From assembly GCA_000092065.1 (NCBI GenBank), contig CP000587.1: DNA of 64,000 nt; one strand, 5' to 3'. Positions within the stretch are counted from its first letter, which is position 1; the number at the start of each line of letters is the position of its first letter. A model generated the notes under the pieces. That model searched no databases, was not told the origin of the DNA, and saw only the letters and a list, made by a program, of their open reading frames with translations. Shown here in pieces: positions 28,538 to 41,419 of this stretch. Position numbers and translations under genes: made by a program. Origin of the DNA: Ostreococcus lucimarinus (lineage: Eukaryota).

Positions 28538-30241
28538 ATGGACGCGCGCGAGGCGGTCGCGCGCCTCGCGCCGACGCTCGCGATGCTCGCGGCGATCGTC
28601 GCGGCGCGCGCACGGGCGCTGACGCGCGCGATGTACGGCGCGATGACGACGAACGCGCTCGTGAGCGGTGGGTTGATGTTCAGCCTTTCGCGTTACTTCG
28701 CGAGCGTCGGGCGCGCGCTGGCGCGGCGCGCGGTCGTCGCGGTCGATCGCGCGGTGTTCATGACGTTCGTCGTCGCGCGAGGGGCGTACGAGGACGACGA
28801 CGACGAGTACGAGGACGTGCGCGCGTTCGTGGAGGAATACTTTTCGCGCGAGTCGTCGACGTGCGAGTTTCGCGCGAGGTACGCGTACGAAGGATTTCAA
28901 TCCGCGCGGGCGAGCGAGGCGCGAAAGGGTGACTCCGGAACGCCGCAGGATCGATCGCTGCGCGGCGTCAGACTGGATGCGCTCGTGGGGGGAAGCGCGA
29001 TTCGAACGCGCGTCGACGGGAAGTCGGTGCGCGTCGCGCATCGATCCGGGAACGCTTCGAGACGCGGCGACGGCGACGAGACGGATGGTTCCTGGTACGA
29101 CGACTTCGTGCGTCAGCGAGAGAGGAACGCGCCGGGACGCGGGGACGGAGACTCGTTGGGCGATCAGTTTGAGGTGAAGATGTATCGGCTTTTCCAATCC
29201 GAGGCTCGCATGAAGGAGCGCTTGTTCGAGTTGATGAAGAGGGGTCGGGCCGCGAAAAAGAAGCACCAACAACAGCGCTGCAGCGAGCACACGTCTGTGT
29301 ACATGCCGAAGACGGTGACGCAGTATCACGAGACGACGACGCCGGGACGTCAACCGTCTCACGTGCAACGAGTTCAACAACAGTGGATCTTGCGCGAGAA
29401 ACCGAGTCGACCTCTAGAAACGGTGGTGCTGCCTCCGGGCGCTAGGGAACGGCTCGTCGCCGATGTCGACGATTTCTTGTCGAGCGAGCGTTGGTACGTC
29501 AATCGCGGTTTGCCGTGGCATCGCGGTTACCTACTTCACGGTCTCCCCGGTACTGGGAAAACGTCGCTCGTGTTCGCGCTCGCCGGGCACTTTAAACTGC
29601 CTCTGTACACCATTCGGCTTAGCGATGAACGATTGGACGATGAAGGCTTACACTGGCTCTTCTCGAACACGCAGAGACGATCGATCATTCTCCTGGACGA
29701 CGTCGACGCGCCCGGCGCGAACGCGGTATTTCGAGAGCCGGCGCCGGAGAGCACGGGAAATTTGTCCGTTTCGTCGACGCTTTCTTTGCTCGATGGAGTC
29801 ACCGCCGTCGACGGTCGCTTGATTTTCCTGACGTGTCGAGATAAGTTGTCGTTAAACCCAACGCTCATTCGACCCGGACGCTTCGACGTCCTCATGCGCT
29901 TCGACGCGCCCAGCAAAGAGCAAATCGCGGCGTATTACAAGCATTTCTACGCCGAGTGCGACGTCGCCGACGACGAGCTCTGGAAAATGGCGAACTCTTT
30001 CGCGGCGATCGCCGTCGACGTGGACAAGATGCCTAAATCCATGGCCGCGCTCCAAGCACTGTTCATCGCGAACAAGGACGACCCAGCCGCCGCTTTGGAG
30101 GCGATGCAAAGCCGAGTGACGCAGCAAAAATCCAAGCGCGTCTCCGCGCTCGGCGGCGCGCTCACGCGAAGTCGCAGCGGAGGCGAGACGGAGCAGCGCG
30201 ACGCGGTCACCAAGCTCGAAACCATCGAAGCGAACGAGTGA
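28538..30241 (+). CDS. BCS1: BCS1-like mitochondrial AAA-ATPase chaperone
   Basis: BCS1 N-terminal TM/import domain, then the AAA core with 'GYLLHGLPGTGKTS', 'IILLDDVDA' and 'NPTLIRPGRFD'. Confidence 0.8.
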   Translation: MDAREAVARLAPTLAMLAAIVAARARALTRAMYGAMTTNALVSGGLMFSLSRYFASVGRALARRAVVAVDRAVFMTFVVARGAYEDDDDEYEDVRAFVEEYFSRESSTCEFRARYAYEGFQSARASEARKGDSGTPQDRSLRGVRLDALVGGSAIRTRVDGKSVRVAHRSGNASRRGDGDETDGSWYDDFVRQRERNAPGRGDGDSLGDQFEVKMYRLFQSEARMKERLFELMKRGRAAKKKHQQQRCSEHTSVYMPKTVTQYHETTTPGRQPSHVQRVQQQWILREKPSRPLETVVLPPGARERLVADVDDFLSSERWYVNRGLPWHRGYLLHGLPGTGKTSLVFALAGHFKLPLYTIRLSDERLDDEGLHWLFSNTQRRSIILLDDVDAPGANAVFREPAPESTGNLSVSSTLSLLDGVTAVDGRLIFLTCRDKLSLNPTLIRPGRFDVLMRFDAPSKEQIAAYYKHFYAECDVADDELWKMANSFAAIAVDVDKMPKSMAALQALFIANKDDPAAALEAMQSRVTQQKSKRVSALGGALTRSRSGGETEQRDAVTKLETIEANE

Positions 30242-30248
30242 GCGCGCG

Positions 30249-30268
30249 ATTGATTGATTGATTGATTG
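30249..30268. repeat. (gatt)5 microsatellite
   Basis: 'gattgattgattgattgatt' immediately 3' of the BCS1 stop codon. Confidence 0.85.
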
Positions 30269-30364
30269 TTTTTAGACTTTTAGATTTCGTACACGACGCA
30301 CAGAACGCGCGTCTCTTCGTCCCGGTCGACGTCGTCTCCGACTGAACACTAAAATAACAACCCG

Positions 30365-31468
30365 ATGCGATCGAGCGTCACATCGCGCGCGTCACGTCTC
30401 GCGCGCGGCGCCCATCGCGCGATGTCCGCGAAAAAGAGTGAAACGAAAGTGAGCGCGTTCGAGACGGACACGTCTCGTCTCATCGACGGCGACGATGACG
30501 ACGCGCACTTCGACAGCTCGCGCTCGGTGTGGGGAAAGCGAGACCCGGGATGTTTGGGCGGTTATAACGACGTCGTCAGTCGACTGCCGTCGTTTCAGAT
30601 CTTCATGTTCGTCGCCATCAGCGCGGCGGTCATGACGGTGCTCTGGGGGACGACGAGCACGCAGGCGGAGAAGAAGGAGCTCATGAGCGCGTTCATCGGA
30701 AGCGCGGCGGTGGAGACGATGCTGAGCCTCGATAACTTGGTGGTGTTTCATCAAATTTTCGGCACGTTCAAGGTGCCGCCGAGTCGAAGGCCGGGAATTC
30801 TGGTCGCCGGTTTGCCCATCATGCTCGTCGTGCGCGTGACGCTGTTTTTGAGCTTTCACGGCGTGTACACGTACGTGCGCGTGCTCTTCGTGCTCATCGG
30901 CGTGTTCATAATTTATCAAGGCGTGTGCGTGGCGTACTTCTCGGAAGACGACGACGATAACGATGATTTGAGTTCAAATTGGATAGTCAAGGGGGTGCGG
31001 GGGTGCTTCGGGAATAGGATGTCGACGAAATACGAAGGGAGCGCGTTTTACGTGCGTACGCCGGATGGGGCGTTGCAGTTTACGCCGCTCATCTTGGTCA
31101 TGGTCTTCATCGAGGCGTCGGATTTGATGTTTTGCATCGACGGCGTGTCTACCATTTACGTCGTCGGTCACACGGACTTGCTCGCGGTCGTCTGCGGCGA
31201 TTGTTGCGCCGTGCTCCTGGTGCGCGCGTTGTACCCGCAGTTGCAAGGCACGGTGGAGATTTTCCCGGATTTGAACTACGCCGTCGCCGCGACCTTGGTC
31301 GCGGTCGGCGTCGACATGATTCTCACCGCGTCCAAGCGAGAGCTCCCCGTGTTCGTGCTCGTGTGTTTCATGGTGGCTGTGTTCATCGCCGGCGTCGTCT
31401 CTTCGTTGGTTCGCGGGTTGATATCCAAGACGTGCGCCGACCGCAAACCGGCGACGCACGACGTCTAA
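30365..31468 (+). CDS. TerC-family integral membrane protein (thylakoid TerC-like)
   Basis: 'ETMLSLDNLVVF' and 'FIEASDLMFCIDGVSTIYVV' correspond to the duplicated TerC motifs (E.SLS.DN / E.TD..FA.DS.PA). Multiple TM helices. TGTAA lies 25 nt past the stop. Confidence 0.75.
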   Translation: MRSSVTSRASRLARGAHRAMSAKKSETKVSAFETDTSRLIDGDDDDAHFDSSRSVWGKRDPGCLGGYNDVVSRLPSFQIFMFVAISAAVMTVLWGTTSTQAEKKELMSAFIGSAAVETMLSLDNLVVFHQIFGTFKVPPSRRPGILVAGLPIMLVVRVTLFLSFHGVYTYVRVLFVLIGVFIIYQGVCVAYFSEDDDDNDDLSSNWIVKGVRGCFGNRMSTKYEGSAFYVRTPDGALQFTPLILVMVFIEASDLMFCIDGVSTIYVVGHTDLLAVVCGDCCAVLLVRALYPQLQGTVEIFPDLNYAVAATLVAVGVDMILTASKRELPVFVLVCFMVAVFIAGVVSSLVRGLISKTCADRKPATHDV

Positions 31469-31547
31469 CCGCGCGCCGCGTCGCCGCGCATCGTGTAACA
31501 TACGACTCATAATAACGCAACGCCGTCGCGAGCGTTCGCGCGATCGA

Positions 31548-31943
31548 TCACGTCAGCGCTCGCACCGCGTCGTCCGCGTCGCACGCCTCGCACGCCAACC
31601 GCGCCGCGTCCTCGAACGCCGCCTTCGCCTCGCGAACCGCCCGCCCTCGCGGCGCGCGATTCGACGCCGCCGCCGTCGCCGTCGCGCGTCGTCCCTCCAA
31701 AGCTTCGATCACGCGCGTTCGCGCGCGCCGCGCGTCCACCGCGACGCACGCGCGTCCGTCGTCGCGTCGCGCGCGCGCGAGCGCCAGGAATCCTCGTCGC
31801 AGCGCGCGCTCGAGCTCGAGTTTCGTCGCCATCGCGCGCGCGCACGCGTCGAGCGCCGCGCGCAGCTCGTCGTCGGGTCGCGTCGACGCGCCTGGGCGCG
31901 CGCGACGCGCCGCGCGCGACGACGACGACGCGCACGCGCCCAT
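31548..31943 (-). CDS. Small hypothetical protein beginning MGACASS (predicted N-myristoylation/palmitoylation motif)
   Basis: 131 aa from an ATG lying inside the 18-nt inverted repeat it shares with the divergent neighbour. Downstream frame is open. No homology. Confidence 0.4.
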   Translation of the reverse strand: MGACASSSSRAARRARPGASTRPDDELRAALDACARAMATKLELERALRRGFLALARARRDDGRACVAVDARRARTRVIEALEGRRATATAAASNRAPRGRAVREAKAAFEDAARLACEACDADDAVRALT

Positions 31944-32039
31944 CGGCGACGAGTGCGGCCGCGGCACATCGCGAAGACGACGCGACGCGAAGCGAACGCG
32001 TCGCAAAGCGCGAGGGCGAGCCCGAGGCGCGCGCGCGAC

Positions 32040-32864
32040 ATGGGCGCGTGCGCGTCGCGCGCGCCCGCGTCGTCGCGCGAGACGACGGACGGCGTCGAAT
32101 CGCGCGACTCGAGCGCGACGACGACGACGACGACGACGACGGCGGTGGACGGCGGCGACGGGAAGGCGCGCGAGCGAAGCGACGGCGTGCCGACGCCGCG
32201 ACACTGGGACGAGGGCGACGGCGCGGCGCGCGCGAGCGACGCGGACGGGTTGCCGCGACGCGTGCGGGCGCTGGAGGCGGATTGGGAGGCGACGGCGAGA
32301 CGATCGGCGACGGAACGGCGAGCGCACGCGGTGATGCTCGCGGAGGAGCGCGCGGTGCGGAAAAGATTGATGGAGGGGATGTCGGACGAGCGAAGGATGC
32401 GAGGACTGGGCGCGGGAGGGCGGGACGACGCGACGCTGCGGGAGATTCGAGAACGCGGGGCGACGCACACGACGTTCGGCGCGGTGTTGGATCGGCGGTA
32501 CGTCACGGGATTGGTGGACAGCACGAGCGATGCGATCGAGTTGAAAGGCGTGCGGAGGGCGAATTCGGTGTCGCCGCCGCTGTGCGATGCGAACGATTCG
32601 GTGGACGCGATGAGTCGAGCGTCGTTCGGGTCGGCGTTCGCGGCGAGCGCGACGGCGATGTCGGTGTCGACGAGCGTGTCGGAGAGGCTGAGGGACGAGG
32701 ACGGCGGCGCGGGGGACACGACACCGCGCTCTCCGCGGGTGACGAATGACTTCCCCGAAGACGCCGAGGTTCCCACGCGCACGACGCCGTTTAGCGATCG
32801 AGTCGAGCGACAACTGCAGGCTTCGGCGCTCAAGGGAAAACGTCCCGAAGAGGCGACGCCGTGA
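32040..32864 (+). CDS. Hypothetical protein beginning MGACASR (predicted N-myristoylation/palmitoylation motif); Thr- and Asp-rich
   Basis: 275 aa from ATG 32040. Gly2/Cys3/Ser6 fit the MGxxxS consensus. It is divergent from the small MGACAS gene. Confidence 0.45.
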   Translation: MGACASRAPASSRETTDGVESRDSSATTTTTTTTAVDGGDGKARERSDGVPTPRHWDEGDGAARASDADGLPRRVRALEADWEATARRSATERRAHAVMLAEERAVRKRLMEGMSDERRMRGLGAGGRDDATLREIRERGATHTTFGAVLDRRYVTGLVDSTSDAIELKGVRRANSVSPPLCDANDSVDAMSRASFGSAFAASATAMSVSTSVSERLRDEDGGAGDTTPRSPRVTNDFPEDAEVPTRTTPFSDRVERQLQASALKGKRPEEATP

Positions 32865-32944
32865 AGCGCGACGCTTCGCAATCGTAGCACACCAGTAGCA
32901 ACAGTAATTCACCAGTATCAGTAGTTGTTGTAGTTCTATCATCG

Positions 32945-34060
32945 TCAAGCCGCGAGCGCCGTCGGCCGTTGTGGCCGCGTCGCTTTGCAATCGGGGAATT
33001 TCCGCGACACGGCCACGATTGGGTAGTGATCGCTGAGAGCCAACCCCCGAGCGTCTCGACACATCGCATGGTGTACGTAGCCAGAGTCTGCGTGTCTGTG
33101 GTGCAGCGGCACGCCGCGCGTGACCATCGATGAGAGGTCGATGACGTAGTCGAGGACGACTTTCGGCACTAAATCGATGTATCGCGACTCGCCGAGACAC
33201 GGCAACACGACGTGCCGCCAACGCGCGACGGGAAAGGTCAAACGAAAACTTCGGTCGACACCTCTCGTCGATCCTTCTCGTCCAGCGATCGATCCATCGA
33301 TATCAGTCAACGGCGCCATGAGATCGACGGATCCGGGAAATTTGTTCATCAGATCTTCGTACTCGCCCGAGCCAGCGACGATGTTCAAGTCGCCGACGAG
33401 CATAATCCGATCGACCTCGTACCCGTTACCCGCGCATTCCATCTCCGCGCGATGCACCACGTCCTTGATGCACGAGATCTGCTTCGCACGCGTGTCTCGC
33501 CCGGATGACCAGTAGTCGGACTGCAGGTGCGTGTTGAGCACGATGGCGACTCGCGTCGTCGGGTCCTCCGCCGCAGTCAAGCGCAAAAAGCTCGTGCTCA
33601 CGCCTTTGGTGAACGACAATCTCTCGACCCCTTTCGCCGGTAGCGCAGTGAAGTGGTTGCACACCATCGAGAATTTTGACGCGATCATCAACCCGCATCG
33701 GGCGCTCGGGGCGTAAACGAATGGAAACTCCTCGCGCAGCGCCACTTTCAAAGCCTTGGCCGCTTCGACTTCCCACATTTCTTGCAAACACACGACGTCG
33801 ATCGCGTCCGCTCGAGAACAGCACAGAATGTTATTCGCCATCGCGTGCGCGCGCTTCGCGATGTCCGTTCTCGTCCCTCCTTGACCTGCAAACACGCCCG
33901 GCAACATTTGCGCGTTCCACGTGCACACCTTCAACAACGAGTTCATCCCAGCGGGGCGCTCGCGCGCGAGCGCGTCGTCGAGGGCGCGCGTGCGGGCGTC
34001 GAGCGCGTGTGTGTGAGCGATATCTACGGTCGACGGCGGCTGATTCGCGTGCGGTACCAT
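32945..34060 (-). CDS. Endonuclease/exonuclease/phosphatase (EEP) family protein, neutral sphingomyelinase/nocturnin-like
   Basis: 'CTWNAQ', 'VVCLQEMW', 'LNTHL', 'LVGDLN' and 'SDHYPI' are EEP catalytic motifs. Start at the internal ATG 'MVPHANQ' (~34060), or at 34168. Confidence 0.65.
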   Translation of the reverse strand: MVPHANQPPSTVDIAHTHALDARTRALDDALARERPAGMNSLLKVCTWNAQMLPGVFAGQGGTRTDIAKRAHAMANNILCCSRADAIDVVCLQEMWEVEAAKALKVALREEFPFVYAPSARCGLMIASKFSMVCNHFTALPAKGVERLSFTKGVSTSFLRLTAAEDPTTRVAIVLNTHLQSDYWSSGRDTRAKQISCIKDVVHRAEMECAGNGYEVDRIMLVGDLNIVAGSGEYEDLMNKFPGSVDLMAPLTDIDGSIAGREGSTRGVDRSFRLTFPVARWRHVVLPCLGESRYIDLVPKVVLDYVIDLSSMVTRGVPLHHRHADSGYVHHAMCRDARGLALSDHYPIVAVSRKFPDCKATRPQRPTALAA

Positions 34061-34333
34061 GGCGTCGCGTTGTGAAGTTCGAGGCGCCGTCGCGTCGTCT
34101 CGGCTCGCGCGACGAATAGCCGAGCGCGCGTGGATTTCACTGGAAGCTAGTCGACACCAATCGTGCACCGTGCCGTGCGCGAGGAGCAGAGTAAATGTAA
34201 ATCGTAAATGGATTTTACAAGCTATCCAACGCCAATCACGACGTCGCGCGCTCCCCTTCTAAAGTAATTGAGAATAGTCACCACGTAAGAGCGTAAATGA
34301 AATTTCTCGTGTCACGACATCCGCTACGTCTGC

Positions 34334-35353
34334 TTAGAAGACGCCGAGAGTGATCGCCTTGTCGATCGGGAGGCAGGCACCGATGCCCATCCAAATCGCG
34401 TAGAAGGTACCGACCAAGAAAACCGTCATCGCCAACGGTCGGCGGAACGGGTTTTGGAACTTGTTGATCGACTCGAGGAACGGCACGGTGATCAAACCAA
34501 CCGGCACGGCAGCCATGGAGAGGACACCGAGGAGCTTGTTCGGGATCACGCGAAGCGCGTTGAAAGTCGGGAAGAAGTACCACTCCGGCAAAATTTCGAG
34601 CGGCGTGGCGAACGGATCCGCCGGCTCGCCGAGCTGGGTCGGTTCCATCACCGCGAGGCCGATGCACAACGCGATGGTACCGAGGATAACGACCGGGAAA
34701 ATGTAGAGTAAATCGTTCGGCCACGCCGGTTCGCCGTAGTAGTTGTGACCCATGCCCTTGGCGAGCTTGGCGCGGAGCACCGGGTCGGACAAGTCGGGCT
34801 TCTTCGTCACCGACGCGACGACTTGGAAGTTACCGCGAGCCTTCGGGGAGACACTGCGATCGCGCGCGAATCGTCGCTTCGTCAGTCTTCATTCATTCGC
34901 CCTCGCGCGCGCGTCCACGCCGCCGTCACCGCCGCGCCGATCCTCATCCGTCGTCTCGCGCGTCCGCGCGCGCGCGTCCGTCGTCCCGCGCCAAACCCTA
35001 TCTTATCATGGGGGGATCGCGATCCCGTCGCGCTTCGTCGCCCGCCCGCGCGTCGCGCGCCGCGCCGACCCCCGATACCCGCCCGCTCCACCGACGCATC
35101 CCTCGCCATTCGCATCGCATCGCGCGTCCCGCGCGTCCCGCGCATCGTTTCGCGCGTCGCCTCGCGCGTCGTCATCCGCCCTCGATCGCGTCCCGTTCGC
35201 GTCGCGCGTCGCCCATTCATCCCCCACGCACCGCAACGGATCGAACCCCCTCACGGCGCCGAACTGCGCGCGCGCCGCGGTGGATTTTTGCGTCGCGCGC
35301 GCGCGCGCGACGACGCGCGGTCGCGCGACGTTGGAGAGCGTTTGCGCGATCAT
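34334..35353 (-). CDS. petD: Cytochrome b6-f complex subunit IV (petD), nuclear copy. Proposed exons 35255..35353 (transit peptide) and 34334..34877; intron ~34878..35254
   Basis: Exon 2 encodes '[44 protein letters not shown]...PEWYFFP...PFRRP...LTLGVF', near-identical to plastid petD. Codon usage is GC3-rich. The track ORF begins with GTG and there is no in-frame ATG. A stop lies 10 codons upstream, so an upstream exon is required. The candidate exon 1 '[33 protein letters not shown]' ends at a GTGAGG donor. An AAG acceptor would restore the frame (...[21 protein letters not shown]|SVTKKPDL). Confidence 0.65.
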
Positions 35354-35380
35354 CGTCTCGTCGCGGTGTGCCGTCGTCGA

Positions 35381-35424
35381 CGCGTCGTCGCGCGTCGTCG
35401 CGCGTCGTCGCGCGTCGTCGCGCG
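35381..35424. repeat. 10-nt tandem repeat (cgcgtcgtcg) x ~4.5
   Basis: 'cgcgtcgtcgcgcgtcgtcgcgcgtcgtcgcgcgtcgtcgcgcg' in the petD/TPR intergenic region. Confidence 0.75.
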
Positions 35425-35732
35425 TTTATTTCGCCCCACGGCTCGTAGTCGAGACGCGCGTAAGCCCATCGAGACGTCGCGATCGTCGTCGCCGCCTGCG
35501 CCGCGTCATCGTTCGGTGCGCCATTCGGGACGGGGTTTCATTCATGCGCGCGCGGGTTTATCGTTCGCGCGCTTTCGCGCGTCGCGAGACGTTCGTCTTA
35601 TATTGTACTCGATCTGAAGCCCATGTATTACGCGCGGCGCGCGCGCGGGCGTCGACATCGCATCCGTCGGTAGCGGCGCCGCGAGACGCGCGCGCGCGTC
35701 GCGTCGGGTCGGGCGAGCGTCGGCGAGCCGCG

Positions 35733-36749
35733 ATGGACGACGACGTCGCGCGCGGCGCGCCCGGCGCGGCGCTCGCGGACGCCGCGCGCGCGGTTCGCGA
35801 GCGACGCGCGCGAGGCGACGATGATTACGACGACGACGACGCGACGGCGACGACGACGGCGCGTCGTGGACGCGCGCGGGACGCGGTCGCGCGCGCGCGG
35901 GCGCTGATGGCGCGCGGACGACGCGCGGAGGCGAAGGCGGCGCTGGACGGCGCGGCGGTGGGGCGAGACGACGACGACGACGACGACGCGACGTTCGCGC
36001 TCGCGGCGCTTCGCGCGGAACTGCCGTATCATTTGAACGATGCGCGCGGCTCGTTGGACGCGATGTGCGCGGTGCACGCGATGTGCGCGAGAGAGGCGCG
36101 GGAGGCGCGCGGGGCGGAGGCGCGAGAGGCGTGGCGGCGGAGACGCGACGCGGCGGCGAGGGGGGTGGCGAGACGACACATGTTGGGCGATGATCCGCGC
36201 GCCGCGCTCGTGTGGCTCGATGCGTTGGCGCGTAGCGAACCGGACGAACCGGCGCACTTTTCCGCGGCGGGACGCGCGCACTTGATGATGGGAGACTTAG
36301 AGGGCGCGCGGCTGTGTTTCGAGGCGGCGGAGAAGAAGACGGCGGCGCTCGGCGAGGCGGCGACGGAGGCGCAGCGCGGGCGCGTGTTGCGCGATCGCGG
36401 TGATTACTTTCTCACGGGGTTGAGGTTTCCCGAAGCCAGGACCGCGTTCGCGGCGGCGATGGCGAAGGGCGAGACGGACGTCGCGGCCAAGGTGAACTCG
36501 GCGGTGGCGGCGGTGTACGACGGCGATTTGAATTCTTCGCGCGCGCTTCTAGAGAGCGGTTTGGCGAACGTCGTGAACGCTGATGTGAATTCAAAGGCGC
36601 GCGCGTTCATCTCTCCGAGTGTGGTGAAAAACTTGAATAGCATATACGAGCTCACGGCGCGTTCGCCCGCCGAGGCCAAGCGCGCGATGAACGACTTCAT
36701 CAAGCTCGTCGCGCCCGAGGACTTTGACGTCACGTGCATGGCGACCTAG
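35733..36749 (+). CDS. TPR-like helical repeat protein (hypothetical)
   Basis: Start 'MDDDVARGAPG' (ATG ~35733). The C-terminal half forms Ala/Leu-rich helical repeats. The upstream part of the track ORF is antisense to the petD region and was rejected. TGTAA lies ~70 nt past the stop. Confidence 0.5.
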   Translation: MDDDVARGAPGAALADAARAVRERRARGDDDYDDDDATATTTARRGRARDAVARARALMARGRRAEAKAALDGAAVGRDDDDDDDATFALAALRAELPYHLNDARGSLDAMCAVHAMCAREAREARGAEAREAWRRRRDAAARGVARRHMLGDDPRAALVWLDALARSEPDEPAHFSAAGRAHLMMGDLEGARLCFEAAEKKTAALGEAATEAQRGRVLRDRGDYFLTGLRFPEARTAFAAAMAKGETDVAAKVNSAVAAVYDGDLNSSRALLESGLANVVNADVNSKARAFISPSVVKNLNSIYELTARSPAEAKRAMNDFIKLVAPEDFDVTCMAT

Positions 36750-36874
36750 CCCTCGCGTCTTAGCACATAGACAGCGCGCGCGCGGCTGCCGCGAATGACG
36801 TGTACACGTACGGTTTGTAATTAAAAAATGCGCTTTGCTAAGAAAAGTTATGTGTGTGTTCTACGGTGCTGACG

Positions 36875-37681
36875 TTAAACGTTTACGTTCAACGCCTTGG
36901 AGATGGCGAATGAAACCAAATACGCGGACGCCGCGGCGAGCGTACCGTTCAAGAGCATATACAGCGCGCTACTCGTGACGTTTTGATTCGTGAACTTCGC
37001 TTTGGCCGCGCCCAAAGCGGCCATCGTCATCGCGGTGAGTCCGCACGCCAACCCGAAGAGCGCGTCCCCGTTCGCCCCTCCGATCGCTCGCCCGAAAACG
37101 TACGGCACGAGCGGAACGAAACCAAACAGCGCGAACGCGCAAAACGTCACCAGCCCATTCTTCGCCGGTGAATCCGTTTCATCCGGCGGCATTAACCCGA
37201 GCTCCTCGACCATCATCAAGTCCAAGAAGAAGTTTTTATACTTTGCCAAGCGCTCGATCACCATCGTCGCGTCCTCTTCGCTCACGCCGCGCGCCATGAA
37301 AAGCTCAATCATTTCTCGTTTCTCTCCCTCTGGATAGTTTTCTAATTCCCATTTCTCCCGCTTCTTTTCCGTCTTCGCGTAGTCGAGCTCCGCCTTGCTC
37401 GAAAGGTAATCTCCGAACCCCATGGATATACCGTCGGCCACGAGGTTGGCGAATCCCATCAAAAGCACGACTTCCGTGCTCAGCCCGCCACCCTTGCTCG
37501 CGGCGACGACGGCAAAGGTCGTGATGGTGCCGTCCAGTCCGCCGAAGACGAGAGATTTGACGTACTTGCCAGCCTCCCCCGCGTGACCGGCTTCTATTTC
37601 GCTGTCGTGCGCGGCGCGGCTTGCCGCCGCGTCGGCGCTCTCGAACGCATTCTTCGCCGCGTCGAGATCTCGAGTGGCCAT
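36875..37681 (-). CDS. Vacuolar iron transporter (VIT1/CCC1 family)
   Basis: 'FGGLDGTITTFAVVAA...GFANLVADGISMGFGDY' and the C-terminal TM bundle are the VIT-family signature. Start 'MATRDLDAAKN' (~37681). Confidence 0.8.
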   Translation of the reverse strand: MATRDLDAAKNAFESADAAASRAAHDSEIEAGHAGEAGKYVKSLVFGGLDGTITTFAVVAASKGGGLSTEVVLLMGFANLVADGISMGFGDYLSSKAELDYAKTEKKREKWELENYPEGEKREMIELFMARGVSEEDATMVIERLAKYKNFFLDLMMVEELGLMPPDETDSPAKNGLVTFCAFALFGFVPLVPYVFGRAIGGANGDALFGLACGLTAMTMAALGAAKAKFTNQNVTSSALYMLLNGTLAAASAYLVSFAISKALNVNV

Positions 37682-37787
37682 CGTCGCTGAATTCCGCGCC
37701 GGCGTCGAGGAGTGACGCGCGAAGGGCGTCAAACGTCCTAGGAAAAAGTCGGACGGATGGATAGACGCGACCGCGTCGCCGGAATCG

Positions 37788-38582
37788 TCACGGCGACGGC
37801 GCCGAACGGTGCGATCGCGCGCTCGAACCGTCGTCATCATCATCCAATAAACGCGCCAGAGCGTCATCGCGATCGAGCGCGCCGAAACGCGCGACATTGG
37901 GAGTCGCGAACGCCGCGCCGCCGACGTCGGCGCCGCCGCCTCGACGAGCCGCGCGACGGGTCGGAGTCTCAATCGCGCCCTCGCTCGCGGTTTCCGACAC
38001 CCGACGTCGCTGATGCACCAAAACCGAGGAACCCTCGCGCGCGATCGCGGACGGCGACGCGCGCCGAACGTTCGTGGACGCCCCGGTCGACGGCGGATCG
38101 ACCGCCGACTTCTCGACCTCGCGCGATCGAACCTCCCGCAACGCCACGGGAATGACGGTGTCTCCAAAATTCTCCCCTATCGCGCTCGACGGCGAACCGA
38201 AACACTTCAGCCATCCTCCGCGTCGTTGTTTTGCGCCCTCGACCGTTCCCGCGTCTCGACGCCGCGGCGCGCCCGTTCTCGCCGCGCCTCGTTCCGACGA
38301 CGCCGGCGTCGCCCGCCCCGAGGACCGCCCGCTCGAGCTCAGGCTCTCCATTACCCCTCGCGTGATCGCGAACGCGGTGTCGAACGACCCTCGCTTTCGT
38401 CGGTCGACGCCGTCGCGTCGCTTCGCGCGCGCGTCGCTCGTTCGCCCGCCGCGCGCTTTGGGTTGAATATCCACGCGCGAGGTCACCACCGCCGCGTCGC
38501 TGTCGAGAATCGTGCGCGTGCCGCCGAGCCAATCCGCGAACGAGGCCTCGTCGACGTCGGGGCCGCACTTAAGTTCCGTCAT
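37788..38582 (-). CDS. Hypothetical protein (low complexity)
   Basis: 264-aa ORF with no recognised domain. Overlapped by antisense ORFs. Confidence 0.25.
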   Translation of the reverse strand: MTELKCGPDVDEASFADWLGGTRTILDSDAAVVTSRVDIQPKARGGRTSDARAKRRDGVDRRKRGSFDTAFAITRGVMESLSSSGRSSGRATPASSERGAARTGAPRRRDAGTVEGAKQRRGGWLKCFGSPSSAIGENFGDTVIPVALREVRSREVEKSAVDPPSTGASTNVRRASPSAIAREGSSVLVHQRRRVSETASEGAIETPTRRAARRGGGADVGGAAFATPNVARFGALDRDDALARLLDDDDDGSSARSHRSAPSP

Positions 38583-38711
38583 CTTCGCGCGCGCGGCGAT
38601 GGACGCGGACGCGCGCGAGGGTCTGCGGCGAGGGGAACGACGCGCGCGAGATTTGAATTTGAACGCGAAACGCGCGCGCGCGGGGCGGGCGCGTCATTTC
38701 CGCGCGCGACG

Positions 38712-39548
38712 ATGATGAAAGCGCGCGACGCGGAGAAAACGAAAGAAAACGATGAGCGGTCGCCGAGCGAGGCGCGCACGCTGTTCTATTCGCCGTATTA
38801 CGACGTGCCGAGCGATTTGGGGTTCCCGCCGGCGCCGCGCTCGACCGCGGGCACCGGGCACAGCGCGGCGCCGAGTTCGACGCGTGGGTTCTCGCTAAAG
38901 AAGATGTATCACTCCGCGATCAGCGCATTTAAGCCGTTCAAGCGATCGCGATCGCCCGAGCGCGCGGGGAAGGGTACGGAGACGGGGAAGACGCTCCGAA
39001 GGCCGAAGGCGCGCCGCGCCGTAAACGCGAACGCGAAGAACGCGACTTCGTCGTGGTTTTGGGTATTCGATAGCCCGAAATCCGATCCCCCAGCGAACGA
39101 CGAGAACGAGTCGGGTGCAGTGGTGAATGATATGTCGATCGAGGAGGGAGCGAACGTGCTCGGGGAAATCAATCGAGATTTCAGCGCAAACGCGCGCGAG
39201 ACAACGACGAGATTGACGACGCAGCCGAAGAATGCTTTACACGTGAGGAAGACGATTCGAAAGAAACCACCGGTCGCTCCAGCGGCTTCGAAGTACCATA
39301 GAAGACGCACCGAAACACTGAAGAATGGACAGGTTCGAAAGTGTTCGAGGTGCGCGATCGAGGGCGACAATTCAATCCACTGGCGTCGATCGTACGATTC
39401 GAAGAGTCCATTCTTCGGGTCAGACCTGTGTGATCGGTGCGGCAAAGCGGAATCGCGCGCATTAGCGAAGCTAAACTCTTCTACGGCGAAGGTTGTTGTG
39501 GCGAATCGACGTCGTACTGATACTCGCGCAATGCCGCGCCGTCGATGA
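38712..39548 (+). CDS. GATA-like zinc-finger protein (C-x2-C-x25-C-x2-C with TxxWRR-like 'SIHWRR')
   Basis: 'CSRCAIEGDNSIHWRRSYDSKSPFFGSDLCDRCG' resembles a GATA-type finger with an unusually long loop. Start 'MMKARDAEK' (ATG ~38712). Confidence 0.45.
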   Translation: MMKARDAEKTKENDERSPSEARTLFYSPYYDVPSDLGFPPAPRSTAGTGHSAAPSSTRGFSLKKMYHSAISAFKPFKRSRSPERAGKGTETGKTLRRPKARRAVNANAKNATSSWFWVFDSPKSDPPANDENESGAVVNDMSIEEGANVLGEINRDFSANARETTTRLTTQPKNALHVRKTIRKKPPVAPAASKYHRRRTETLKNGQVRKCSRCAIEGDNSIHWRRSYDSKSPFFGSDLCDRCGKAESRALAKLNSSTAKVVVANRRRTDTRAMPRRR

Positions 39549-39655
39549 AGCGCGCGCCTGTGACGAGAACGACTGAAATGAAGGAATCTGATCTAGAATG
39601 TGCTATGAAGAGTTGTAACTGCTGCTATGTGCGTGTATCGTACATGATGAATCAA

Positions 39656-41419
39656 TCAAATCGGTGTCCCGAAGTCCGCGTCGACTGGGTTCTTCCAGTG
39701 GTTAAAGTCGTTGAATTGTTCCTCCGCCACGCTTCCCGTCACCGGGCACGTATCTTCAATGGGCGGGAACATTTCGTGCGCGAGCTCGTTGACCTCGGAC
39801 AACGTGTACTGCTTCACTCGCTTTGTCGTCTCGCACACGACCTCGCCTTTCGGGTTGATCGTGAATACGCGGTGTTGAGGCACGCCCACGGCGAGGTAAG
39901 ACTCCACGTCTGTATCTCGGTTCCCGAACCCTGCATGAAAAGGATTCCACCCGGGTGGGAACAAGTTGCGAATGTCTTGCAAGCATCGAATCTTGAACCG
40001 CTGAGGGTTCCTCGTGACGACTTCGCGAAACAACGCTTTGGACAAAGGATCCGGCGCGCACATCACCGGCCCTTGCGCGAGCGTCTTGTCGCCCTGACGA
40101 AGCGACGACAGGTACTTTCTAGTTCCCGAAGCGTGCGAAATCGCTCGCGAAGTCAAGAACATCATCTTGTATCCGTTGTCGGTGATGTTGCTGTAAAGCG
40201 ACGCGACACCGTCGTGACTCCAGTCTTTACCGACCATCGGTGCGAGATGGCCGAGGACGTCACTCTTCGTGATCGTCCCGTCGACATCACTGATGACGAG
40301 CTTTATGTTCCAATCCCATAAATACACGAACGCCGAAACCTCTTGCAATCCCCACACGCGCGAGTTGAACGCGAACGAGATGGTATTGGTGCCGGGCTTG
40401 AGATCGAGCGACATCACTTCATCTTGCGTTAACTGCACGCGACGTACGCGACGACCTCGTCTCGGCGACGTCAACGCGTCGAAACCAACCGATCCGCCTG
40501 GCGCGTTGACCAAAGGCGACGCAGGCGCGTTGACGCGACCGTTCGAGGTCAACTTCCAGTTCGATGGCAAAGGAGTGCCGAACGCGAGGTGCGCCAAGAC
40601 GTGCGGTGCTGCCGCGCTCCAAGGTAATGCCTTCGCGGGTGGTCCCGCCGGACTGCGTCGCGGTCGCACGACGAGCCCAGAATGTCCGATCAGCCCAGGG
40701 TGCGCCTTGAAGTGCTCGAGCGTCACCAAGTGCTTGTCGAACTCCTCCACTTTCCCCCCGCACAAGCTCAACTCCACGGCGGGCAACACGGTCATTCCGG
40801 CGCTTTGTAACGCATCCACCGCCGTCGCCACTTCCTCTTCGGACATCGTACGTTTCCCGTCTTCTACGTCCCCGCTCGAACCCGACGTACTCGGCCTCGT
40901 CGTCTTCGGCGGCGTCTCTAATCGAAGCGCCGACAGCGCCTCGACCGCCCCGACCTCGTCTTCATCCCCGGTTCCTAACTCTATATCGCTTTCCTCATCT
41001 TCGTCCTCGTCGTCGTCGAAATCGTCCACACCGTCCGCGAAGTACGCCTCGCCGTTGGATCCGAGCCGCATCGTCAGCTCGCTCAGCGTCCCGTTCACCG
41101 TCACCGTCACCACCTTGGCTTCGCGTCCTCGCAGGAACGACTGCGCGTTACCGAATCGCACGTAGAACGGACTCGCCCTGAGTCCTCCGTCGGGTTGTTT
41201 GATCACCAGCGTGTCTGCGAGCGACGCGCGAGGCGTTGATTAGTCGACAGTTGGATCTCTCGCGCGGGTCGCGTTCGCGTTCGCGTCGTTCGTACCTATA
41301 GCGCCGCTCGCGCTCGGGACGAGCGTGCTCACGGCGGCGACGGAGCCGCCGACGGTGCCCACGGCGACGGAGCCGGCGACATCGCGGATCTGGCGAAGCC
41401 GCGAGGCGAGGGTCTTGTT
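39656..41419 (-). CDS. Lipin/Pah1 phosphatidate phosphatase (N-LIP + LNS2/HAD). Exons ~41287..41419 and 39656..41214; 72-nt intron
   Basis: Catalytic 'DVDGTITKSD' (DxDxT). Splicing exon 1 (MGDNKTL...SGAI, AG|GTACGA donor) to exon 2 (CAG acceptor) restores the N-LIP motif 'GAIDTLVIKQPDGGLRASPFYVRFG'. The track ORF begins at a GTG inside exon 2. Confidence 0.8.

What the first reader, a model, noticed from the sequence alone, without database searches (positions are those of the whole stretch)
34334..35353. Nuclear, GC-adapted petD (cytochrome b6f subunit IV) gene with a probable transit-peptide exon
petD is plastid-encoded in essentially all plants and algae. Here a ~158-codon segment that is near-identical to petD sits in GC-rich nuclear context. 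It has nuclear-type GC3-rich codons and no in-frame ATG: the ORF opens at GTG, with a stop 10 codons upstream. An upstream ORF (35255..35353) encodes an Arg/Ala/Ser-rich peptide, '[33 protein letters not shown]', ending exactly at a GTGAGG donor. An in-frame AAG acceptor would create a ~56-aa presequence ending 'VVA|SVTKKPDL'. This looks like a functional endosymbiotic gene transfer rather than a dead organelle-DNA insert (NUPT).
Basis: partly seen in the sequence, partly recalled or inferred. Interest (0 to 1): 0.8.

Follow-up and report, generated by a model that had tools for sequence, protein, structure and literature searches.

The report
Known nuclear petD gene of Ostreococcus
This is the working nuclear copy of the photosynthesis gene petD (cytochrome b6f subunit IV) in the green picoalga Ostreococcus lucimarinus, with a chloroplast-targeting leader and one intron; the move from organelle to nucleus is real, but the gene is already annotated and is shared by the whole algal group.

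Summary
Window 34334..35353 (minus strand) holds a functional, nuclear, GC3-rich petD gene with an N-terminal presequence. It is not a dead plastid-DNA insert.

The details needed correcting:
- The intron runs 35231..34854 (GTGCGT…CGCAG, 378 nt, phase 2), not GTGAGG…AAG.
- The in-frame stop lies 27 codons upstream of the GTG, not 10.

The corrected 213-aa product is identical to the deposited protein XP_001418831.1 of Ostreococcus lucimarinus CCE9901, so the window is Ostreococcus nuclear DNA.

Evidence that the gene functions:
- It matches TIGR01156 over its full length (303 bits) and aligns without gaps to solved b6f structures.
- dN/dS is 0.03–0.13 against eight orthologues.
- Bathycoccus and Micromonas-like genomes keep the same neighbouring genes and the same intron position and phase.
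- Intron-free transcript sequences from relatives carry the predicted junction peptide.
- The presequence is homologous to that of Pyramimonas PetD transcripts, which points to one ancient transfer.

Plastome papers show that petD is not universal in prasinophyte plastomes, and nuclear PetD is documented in Euglena. Verdict: real and correctly recognised, but already known, so interest is low.

Side observation: marine giant-virus contigs carry intron-less petD copies that keep remnants of the host transit peptide.

The parts
35232..35353 (-). Exon 1 of nuclear petD. ATG at 35353..35351; 122 nt. It encodes presequence residues 1-40 plus 2 nt of codon 41 ([41 protein letters not shown]).
   Evidence: The spliced product is identical to XP_001418831.1. 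The F-x-PL motif at the exon end is conserved in Bathycoccus, Micromonas and Pyramimonas presequences.
34854..35231 (-). Spliceosomal intron: 378 nt, GTGCGT donor, CGCAG acceptor, phase 2, 73% GC.
   Evidence: Bathycoccus has an intron at the same position and phase (465 nt), as does a Micromonas-like contig (545 nt, also GTGCGT...CGCAG). The L004 and L005 contigs interrupt the reading frame at the same point. Elsewhere in the window the intron has only low-complexity matches.
34334..34853 (-). Exon 2: last base of codon 41, the end of the presequence ([13 protein letters not shown]), the mature PetD, and the TAA stop at 34336..34334.
34814..34853 (-). The part of the predicted chloroplast transit peptide that lies in exon 2 (residues 41-54). 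The processing site is inferred to be after ...VVA54, just before S55-VTKKPDL.
   Evidence: The presequence has 10 basic and 1 acidic residue, 11 Ala and 6 Ser/Thr in 54 residues. Plastid-encoded PetD begins M-S/G-VTKKPDL. The cleavage site is an inference and was not tested.
34337..34813 (-). Mature cytochrome b6f subunit IV (159 residues, SVTKKPDL...TLGVF), including the PEWY motif of the quinol-oxidation site.
   Evidence: TIGR01156 at 302.8 bits. Gapless alignment to PDB 6rqf, 7r0w, 1q90, 2zt9 and 2e74. PEWY at mature residues 76-79. dN/dS 0.03-0.13.
35354..35732 (.). Short divergent intergenic region between petD (minus strand) and the neighbouring plus-strand gene (probable ATG at 35733). 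It presumably holds the petD promoter and 5' UTR, and it contains the tandem repeat (CGTCGTCGCG)x5.3 at 35372..35425.
   Evidence: The relative's sequence P0003 extends at least 18 nt upstream of the ATG ('[10 protein letters not shown]'). Promoter function was not tested.

Best explanation
This locus is the single-intron nuclear gene for cytochrome b6f subunit IV (PetD) of Ostreococcus lucimarinus. It is an ancient, fixed transfer of petD from the plastid to the nucleus.

Shown: the gene is nuclear, intact, intron-bearing, under purifying selection, conserved in position across Mamiellales, and represented by spliced transcript-type sequences in relatives.

Inferred: the mRNA is spliced (GTGCGT...CGCAG) and translated in the cytosol into a 213-aa precursor. 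Its roughly 54-residue basic, Ala/Arg/Val-rich N-terminal transit peptide directs import through the chloroplast envelope (TOC/TIC). A stromal peptidase removes the transit peptide near VVA|SVTKKPDL. The three-helix mature protein is then inserted into the thylakoid membrane, probably by the cpSRP/Alb3 route described for plant PetD. There it assembles with plastid-encoded cytochrome b6 and the other subunits to form the quinol-oxidation (PEWY) site.

Also inferred: because the presequence is homologous in Pyramimonas, the transfer and the acquisition of the transit peptide most likely happened once, before the Pyramimonadales and Mamiellophyceae diverged.
For: - Identity: TIGR01156 at 302.8 bits. 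Gapless match to solved b6f subunit IV chains. 82% identical to spinach PetD and 84% to the Pycnococcus-cluster plastid PetD.
- Gene model: the corrected splice gives 213 aa, identical to XP_001418831.1/ABO97124.1 of O. lucimarinus CCE9901 on a 783-kb contig.
- Nuclear context: the neighbours are Exo_endo_phos, VIT1, Lipin/LNS2, SNase, TerC and a BCS1-like AAA protein, with GC3 0.67-0.80. The window has no petB, no tRNA within 30000..40000 and no other PetD match.
- Synteny: the same Lipin - VIT1 - unknown - petD - Exo_endo_phos order occurs in Bathycoccus chromosomes and in a Micromonas-like 2-Mb contig.
- Intron: position and phase are conserved.
- Selection: dN/dS 0.03-0.13 against eight orthologues, with dS 0.43-1.41.
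- Expression in relatives: MMETSP transcripts from Micromonas polaris and Pyramimonas, and intron-free environmental sequences, carry the junction peptide GFDPLRVSPK.
- Presequence homology: Pyramimonas against Micromonas, presequence only, 43% identity over 53 aa, E 2e-5. These two groups are sisters in chloroplast phylogenomics (PMC4194372).
- Plastome data: petD is not among the 75 genes shared by all prasinophyte plastomes, while petA, petB and petG are (PMC4194372). Relative to the Pyramimonas plastome, euglenids lost only petA and petN of the b6f genes, yet euglenid plastomes lack petD (PMC3308993; PMC5572947).
Against: - Nothing here shows transcription, splicing or import in strain CCE9901 itself. 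The transcript evidence comes from relatives.
- I did not test directly whether petD is absent from the O. lucimarinus plastome. No plastome was available, and Robbens 2007 and Turmel 2009 are not in the held library.
- The tree of the mature protein is poorly resolved. It does not recover Pyramimonas plus Mamiellales as one clade, so the single-transfer inference rests on the presequence homology.
- The cleavage site and the thylakoid insertion route are inferences from other systems.
Confidence: 0.95

Rival explanations
1. The sequence is a NUPT: a recent, non-functional insertion of plastid DNA into the nucleus that happens to keep an open frame.
For: The open frame begins at GTG, not ATG, and covers almost exactly the plastid-length protein.
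Against: - GC3 is 0.84, like the nuclear neighbours.
- No flanking plastid genes or tRNAs.
- A conserved intron and presequence.
- Synteny across three genera.
- dN/dS 0.03-0.13 with dS up to 1.4.
- Spliced transcripts in relatives.
Confidence: 0.01
2. One reading: exon 1 ends at 35255, the donor is GTGAGG, the acceptor is AAG at about 34877, and the presequence reads ...[22 protein letters not shown]...
For: This model also preserves the frame and also gives 213 aa.
Against: - The deposited protein uses the GTGCGT...CGCAG junction.
- Intron-free relatives read AQFGAV(R/K)GFDPLRVSPK.
- Orthologous introns sit in the codon right after that motif, in phase 2, and the Micromonas-like contig uses the same GTGCGT and CGCAG sites.
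Confidence: 0.03
3. The nuclear gene did not come from the alga's own plastid. It was acquired horizontally from another alga, a cyanobacterium or a virus and later replaced the plastid copy.
For: - The mature-protein tree does not place the Mamiellales sequences inside a green-plastid clade.
- The FPTFN-x-LR motif is shared with a red-algal plastid PetD and with unnamed 160-aa environmental PetDs.
- Giant viruses carry close copies.
Against: - The prasinophyte Pycnococcus-cluster plastid PetD has the same motif and is the closest labelled organellar sequence (84%), so the motif is simply ancestral.
- Spinach is the best PDB match.
- The viral copies carry fragments of host transit peptides and lack the intron, which points to transfer from host to virus.
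- The tree has little support anywhere.
Confidence: 0.04

Closest known systems
XP_001418831.1 / ABO97124.1 / UniRef100_A4RZP4, 'predicted protein' of Ostreococcus lucimarinus CCE9901
   Same: Identical over all 213 residues to the corrected spliced product of this locus. It is this gene.
   Different: No sequence difference. The database name is uninformative ('predicted protein', or 'Cytochrome b/b6 C-terminal region profile domain-containing protein'), so the record does not say that this is PetD.
Nuclear PetD of other Mamiellophyceae (Bathycoccus prasinos, Micromonas polaris) and of Pyramimonas (MMETSP transcripts)
   Same: - Precursors of 212-220 aa with homologous presequences.
- In Mamiellales, the same intron position and phase and the same neighbouring genes.
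- 73-95% identity.
   Different: - Presequence length and sequence vary.
- Intron length is 378, 465 and 545 nt.
- No genomic locus was available for Pyramimonas, so its intron and synteny are unknown.
Nuclear-encoded PetD (and PetA) of Euglena gracilis
   Same: It is a documented case of petD moved from the plastid genome to the nucleus in a lineage whose plastid derives from a Pyramimonas-like green alga (PMC11314055; PMC3308993; PMC5572947).
   Different: Euglenids have secondary plastids, which (established knowledge) need a more complex targeting presequence, and they have also moved petA. I could not test whether the euglenid gene descends from the same transfer, because no named euglenid sequence was retrieved.
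Plastid-encoded PetD (spinach 6rqf, Chlamydomonas 1q90, Pycnococcus provasolii YP_002600830.1)
   Same: Same protein. Identity is 76-84% with a gapless alignment, and the PEWY motif and SVTKKPDL N-terminus are retained.
   Different: The plastid proteins are 159-160 aa with no presequence, and their genes have no spliceosomal intron. They are organelle genes, typically next to petB. This gene is nuclear, GC3-rich and sits among nuclear genes.
NUPTs (nuclear plastid DNA insertions)
   Same: Plastid-derived sequence located in nuclear DNA.
   Different: All features expected of a NUPT are absent: plastid base composition, collinear plastid neighbours and decay.

Membership tests
Cytochrome b6f complex subunit IV (PetD; TIGR01156, Pfam PF00032) | Full-length match to the equivalog model above its curated cut-off | tested here: met
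   302.8 bits against a cut-off of 127.05. Protein residues 2-158 match model positions 4-160 of 160.
Cytochrome b6f complex subunit IV (PetD; TIGR01156, Pfam PF00032) | Collinear, gap-free alignment with experimentally solved subunit IV chains (three transmembrane helices E-G) | tested here: met
   Residues 1-158 align with residues 3-160 of 6rqf_J at E 7e-88. The matches to 7r0w, 1q90, 2zt9 and 2e74 are similar and also gapless. Helix topology is inferred from this alignment and was not predicted separately.
Cytochrome b6f complex subunit IV (PetD; TIGR01156, Pfam PF00032) | Conserved PEWY motif of the quinol-oxidation (Qo) site | tested here: met
   [11 protein letters not shown] is present, with PEWY at mature residues 76-79.
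Cytochrome b6f complex subunit IV (PetD; TIGR01156, Pfam PF00032) | Physical assembly into the b6f complex in thylakoids | not testable with these tools
   This needs proteomics or a structure of Ostreococcus b6f.
Functional organelle-to-nucleus transferred gene (EGT) | Located in a nuclear chromosome among nuclear genes | tested here: met
   Exact protein match to a 783-kb O. lucimarinus contig. Eukaryotic-type neighbours such as Lipin/LNS2, VIT1 and Exo_endo_phos. Synteny in Bathycoccus chromosomes of about 1.13-1.19 Mb.
Functional organelle-to-nucleus transferred gene (EGT) | Nuclear gene structure and codon usage (spliceosomal intron, host-like GC3) | tested here: met
   GT...AG intron, conserved in position and phase across three genera. 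GC3 of 0.84 against 0.67-0.80 in the neighbours.
Functional organelle-to-nucleus transferred gene (EGT) | N-terminal organelle-targeting presequence | tested here: inconclusive
   A 54-residue extension with 10 basic and 1 acidic residue, rich in Ala, Arg and Val, homologous across genera. This fits a chlorophyte transit peptide. No targeting predictor or import assay was available.
Functional organelle-to-nucleus transferred gene (EGT) | Expressed and spliced | tested here: inconclusive
   Spliced transcript-type sequences exist for close relatives (P0003, P0005, Micromonas polaris and Pyramimonas MMETSP). No RNA data for strain CCE9901 itself.
Functional organelle-to-nucleus transferred gene (EGT) | Under purifying selection | tested here: met
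   Nei-Gojobori dN/dS of 0.03-0.13 against eight orthologous loci.
Functional organelle-to-nucleus transferred gene (EGT) | The organelle copy has been lost | tested here: inconclusive
   Indirect evidence only. petD is not among the genes shared by all prasinophyte plastomes, and Pyramimonas and euglenid plastomes appear to lack it. The Ostreococcus plastome itself was not available. From my own memory, the published O. tauri plastome lacks petD.
NUPT (non-functional nuclear plastid DNA) | Plastid-like base composition and collinear plastid flanks | tested here: not met
   GC3 0.84. No petB or other PetD match anywhere in the window, and no tRNA within 30000..40000.
NUPT (non-functional nuclear plastid DNA) | Neutral decay (frameshifts, stops, dN/dS near 1) | tested here: not met
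   Intact frame. dN/dS 0.03-0.13.

The most novel reading that the evidence does not exclude
The window locus itself is already known. The most novel reading my evidence leaves open concerns its descendants. The nuclear version of petD, still carrying the tail of the host chloroplast transit peptide but without the intron, appears to have been captured more than once by marine giant viruses (Nucleocytoviricota) from Mamiellophyceae hosts. One viral lineage has a presequence tail identical to that of Bathycoccus; another has a tail like that of Micromonas and Ostreococcus. Such a gene could serve as an auxiliary metabolic gene whose product is imported into the host chloroplast to sustain cytochrome b6f during infection. 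I found no paper in the held library that names a viral PetD. Rieske and PetM subunits are reported, and an unspecified 'cytochrome b6-f complex' gene is listed for the co-PelV virus. The probability given is for the capture being real and also not previously described.
Probability: 0.3. Interest if true: 0.55.

Novelty: already known. Interest (0 to 1): 0.2.

Why it matters
petD encodes a three-helix core subunit of a redox complex. The hydrophobicity and redox-regulation (CoRR) hypotheses both predict that this kind of gene should stay in the organelle. Lineages that moved it to the nucleus successfully are therefore useful natural experiments for those hypotheses. They are also useful precedents for engineering plastid genes into the nucleus.

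That value is already available, because the Ostreococcus gene model is public and the phenomenon is documented for this algal group and for Euglena. What this check adds is modest:
- the corrected splice junction;
- evidence that the intron, the presequence and the chromosomal neighbourhood are conserved across Mamiellales;
- evidence that the presequence is homologous in Pyramimonas, which argues for a single ancient transfer;
- the side observation that giant viruses carry derivatives of the nuclear gene.

Tried and rejected
1. It keeps the frame but is contradicted by the deposited protein, by relatives' transcripts and by the orthologous introns.
2. The NUPT or pseudogene reading. Rejected on composition, context, selection and synteny.
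3. The intron as a repeated 'introner'-type element. Elsewhere in the window it has only low-complexity GC-rich matches of 73-92% identity over 26-138 nt.
4. The primary plastome papers (Turmel 2009, Robbens 2007) and Cardol 2008 are not held. Six full-text searches found no explicit sentence saying that petD is nuclear in Ostreococcus or Mamiellales, so only indirect plastome statements could be cited.
5. A neighbour-joining tree of the 155-residue mature region with 500 bootstraps. It is too conserved to resolve the origin. Only one informative split reached 74%. An earlier Biopython run timed out.
6. A search with Pyramimonas PetD to find euglenid nuclear PetD and test for a shared presequence. 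No named euglenid sequence was among the best 120 hits.
7. An automated exon finder for L004 and L005 failed because it required the motif 'PL.V.PK'. Inspecting the reading frames resolved it.
8. The first Pfam call failed because one ORF was out of frame. It was repeated with correct coordinates.

Full report
OBSERVATION

On the minus strand of the window there is a 158-codon open frame, 34334..34810, that opens at GTG. It is a complete cytochrome b6f subunit IV. It scores 302.8 bits on the NCBIfam equivalog TIGR01156, whose cut-off is 127, and covers model positions 4-160 of 160. It aligns without a single gap to the solved PetD chains of spinach (6rqf, E 7e-88), Synechocystis, Chlamydomonas, Nostoc and Mastigocladus. 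Identity is 129/158 to spinach, 119/157 to Chlamydomonas and 133/158 to the plastid PetD cluster that contains Pycnococcus provasolii YP_002600830.1. The PEWY motif of the quinol-oxidation site is intact. GC3 is 0.84, in a window that is 55-72% GC throughout. So the core observation is real and cannot be chance.

Two details were wrong.
- The nearest in-frame stop upstream of the GTG is 27 codons away (TGA at 34891..34889), not 10.
- The proposed intron (GTGAGG donor after ...AQFGA, AAG acceptor) is not the one used. Transcript-type sequences from close relatives read ...AQFGAV(R/K)GFDPLRVSPK(A/T)RGN...[10 protein letters not shown] (P0003, P0005). So exon 1 continues through the GTGAGG to a GTGCGT donor.

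The corrected model is: exon 1 at 35353..35232, intron at 35231..34854 (378 nt, GTGCGT...CGCAG, phase 2), exon 2 at 34853..34334. It gives an uninterrupted 213-aa protein.

IDENTITY OF THE LOCUS

The corrected 213-aa sequence is, residue for residue, XP_001418831.1 / ABO97124.1 / UniRef100_A4RZP4. That record is a 'predicted protein' of Ostreococcus lucimarinus CCE9901, on a 783,246-bp contig. The window is therefore Ostreococcus lucimarinus nuclear DNA, and the gene model is already public under an uninformative name.

NUCLEAR CONTEXT AND CONSERVATION

The surrounding ORFs encode typical nuclear genes: an endonuclease/exonuclease/phosphatase-family protein immediately downstream, then VIT1, Lipin/LNS2, an SNase-domain protein, TerC and a BCS1-like AAA ATPase. 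Their GC3 is 0.67-0.80. The window has no petB and no second PetD-like sequence, and there is no tRNA within 30000..40000.

The same gene order, Lipin/LNS2 - VIT1 - unknown gene - petD - Exo_endo_phos, occurs on Bathycoccus prasinos chromosomes (NCBI assemblies, about 1.13 and 1.19 Mb) and on a Micromonas-like 2.06-Mb contig. The petD - Exo_endo_phos pair also recurs on two further Micromonas-like contigs.

The intron is conserved in both position and phase. It sits in the codon right after the F-x-PL motif:
- R(CG|T) in Ostreococcus;
- S(AG|C) in Bathycoccus, intron 465 nt;
- G(GG|T) in the Micromonas-like contig, intron 545 nt, with the same GTGCGT and CGCAG sites.

The intron is not a dispersed repeat.

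FUNCTIONALITY

Nei-Gojobori comparison of the mature coding region with eight orthologous loci gives dN/dS of 0.03-0.13 at dS of 0.43-1.41. That is long-term purifying selection.

Spliced, intron-free sequences exist for relatives:
- MMETSP transcripts from Micromonas polaris (P0127) and Pyramimonas (P0050, P0045; taxid 36882 is Pyramimonas);
- P0003, an Ostreococcus-like sequence whose translated 5' end ([10 protein letters not shown]) matches the window upstream of the ATG;
- P0005, a 219-aa ORF on a 903-nt contig, which is too short to hold the intron.

My reading of the 'merc' source label as assembled metatranscriptomes is an inference.

The 54-residue presequence has 10 basic and 1 acidic residue and is rich in Ala, Arg and Val. 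That fits a chlorophyte transit peptide. It ends ...VVA just before SVTKKPDL, which is the N-terminus of plastid-encoded PetD.

These results exclude a NUPT.

MECHANISM

Shown: a nuclear, intron-containing, selectively maintained gene that encodes a PetD precursor.

Inferred from established chloroplast biology: cytosolic translation; TOC/TIC import directed by the presequence; stromal processing near A54|S55; thylakoid insertion, for which the cpSRP/Alb3 route has been proposed for plant PetD (PMC5697057, title and abstract listed); and assembly with plastid-encoded cytochrome b6.

EVOLUTIONARY ORIGIN

The presequences of Pyramimonas and Mamiellales PetD are homologous. Presequence-only BLASTP gives 43% identity over 53 residues at E 2e-5, and the multiple alignment shows a shared F-x-PL ... 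RG-x-LQV-x-x-(S/G)-V pattern. Chloroplast phylogenomics makes Pyramimonadales and Mamiellophyceae sister groups (PMC4194372). The simplest reading is one transfer, with one transit-peptide acquisition, in their common ancestor.

The tree of the mature 155 residues is too poorly resolved to confirm or refute this. The only informative split, at 74% bootstrap, groups the Mamiellales nuclear sequences with the viral and environmental sequences, against Pyramimonas plus plastid and cyanobacterial sequences. The FPTFN-x-LR motif is also present in the Pycnococcus-cluster plastid PetD and in a red-algal plastid PetD. It is therefore ancestral and is not evidence of foreign origin.

COMPARISON WITH WHAT IS KNOWN

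- Lemieux et al. 2014 list petA, petB and petG, but not petD, among the 75 genes shared by all prasinophyte plastomes (PMC4194372).
- Hrda et al. 2012 list only petA and petN as the b6f genes lost between the Pyramimonas plastome and euglenid plastomes (PMC3308993).
- Euglenid plastomes nevertheless lack petD (PMC5572947).
- A 2024 review states that PetA and PetD are nuclear in Euglena gracilis (PMC11314055).

I could not read Robbens 2007 or Turmel 2009. My recollection that they report petD missing from the Ostreococcus, Monomastix and Pyramimonas plastomes is memory, not a tool result. The absence of petD from the O. lucimarinus plastome is therefore supported only indirectly here. Whether the euglenid nuclear gene descends from the same transfer could not be tested.

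VERDICT

The splice sites are corrected here. The gene is already annotated and the phenomenon is known for this lineage, so novelty is 'already known' and interest is low (0.2).

SIDE OBSERVATION

- A 193-aa PetD (P0044, 87% identical to the window protein) and its relatives lie on AT-rich contigs (31-40% GC; petD GC3 0.30) that are very gene-dense, up to 171 kb long, and catalogued in IMG/VR. Some are giant-virus MAGs.
- One such contig has an NCLDV major capsid protein (PF16903) and a D5-type primase-helicase within 10 kb of petD, together with an SNF2/RING helicase, XRN, DnaJ and a 2OG-Fe(II) oxygenase.
- The viral genes have no intron, and their short N-terminal extensions end in host transit-peptide sequence. 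'...SRSLVISNSV' is identical to Bathycoccus. '...SRGNLQIAASV' resembles Micromonas and Ostreococcus. They therefore derive from the nuclear gene, probably by more than one capture.
- Giant-virus photosynthesis genes, including the Rieske and PetM subunits of b6f, are reported. I found no text naming PetD.

Noticed in passing
L006/L007 5001-5582; L011-L013 10001-10579; L014 819-1316; L015 6533-7033; L016-L018 10001-10501; L019 777-1268; L020 10001-10408: Giant-virus (Nucleocytoviricota) contigs from IMG/VR, including GVMAG bins, carry an intron-less petD that is 82-88% identical to the nuclear Mamiellales PetD. The contigs are 31-40% GC and up to 171 kb. L013 has an NCLDV major capsid protein and a D5 primase-helicase within 10 kb of petD. 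The short N-terminal extensions end in host transit-peptide sequence: 'SRSLVISNSV' is identical to Bathycoccus, and 'SRGNLQIAASV' resembles Micromonas and Ostreococcus. This suggests more than one host-to-virus capture of the nuclear gene. No held paper names a viral PetD.
   Followed up: partly
window 35372..35425: A near-perfect tandem repeat, (CGTCGTCGCG) x 5.3 with 97% matches, lies 19 nt upstream of the petD ATG, in the 379-nt divergent intergenic region shared with the plus-strand neighbour. It may be part of the 5' UTR or promoter. Its function is unknown.
   Followed up: no
window 34752..36749 (+): A 665-codon ATG ORF runs antisense through petD exon 2's 5' end, the intron and exon 1. 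Its 5' half looks like a GC-rich reading-frame artefact. The real gene probably starts at the ATG at 35733 (338 aa, no Pfam match). A gene without a Pfam match occupies the same divergent position next to petD in Bathycoccus and in the Micromonas-like contig.
   Followed up: partly
window 32948..41071; L001/L002; L003; L004; L005: A microsynteny block, Lipin/LNS2 - VIT1 - unknown - petD - Exo_endo_phos (with an SNase-domain gene nearby), is conserved between Ostreococcus, Bathycoccus and Micromonas-like genomes. One Bathycoccus assembly (L001) has a reverse-transcriptase (RVT_2) gene of about 1,400 aa upstream of petD where L002 has VIT1 and Lipin, which suggests a retroelement insertion or rearrangement polymorphism between strains.
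   Followed up: partly
protein P0001 (250 aa, JGI contig of 1,814 nt): The top-scoring database hit is a 250-aa PetD with an internal duplication of about 90 residues. The segment from the first transmembrane helix to the [10 protein letters not shown] loop occurs twice in divergent versions. It could be a real tandem partial duplication or an assembly chimera of two organisms.
   Followed up: no
protein P0157 (MBP04666.1), in the cluster of P0062/P0028: A 34-aa fragment annotated 'MAG: cytochrome b6-f complex subunit IV, partial [Euryarchaeota archaeon]', on a 22.8-kb contig, belongs to the 90%-identity cluster of P0062, whose sequences resemble the Mamiellales nuclear and viral PetDs. It is most likely an algal or giant-virus contig mis-binned into an archaeal MAG.
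   Followed up: no
proteins P0023, P0040, P0043, P0051 (213-218 aa, environmental): Several environmental PetD precursors have divergent, less Arg/Ala-rich presequences that still align at the Q-F-G ... (R/K)-x-x-x-V-x-(A/S)-(S/T/N)-V end. They are probably nuclear petD genes of uncultured relatives of the Mamiellophyceae. No organism is assigned.
   Followed up: no
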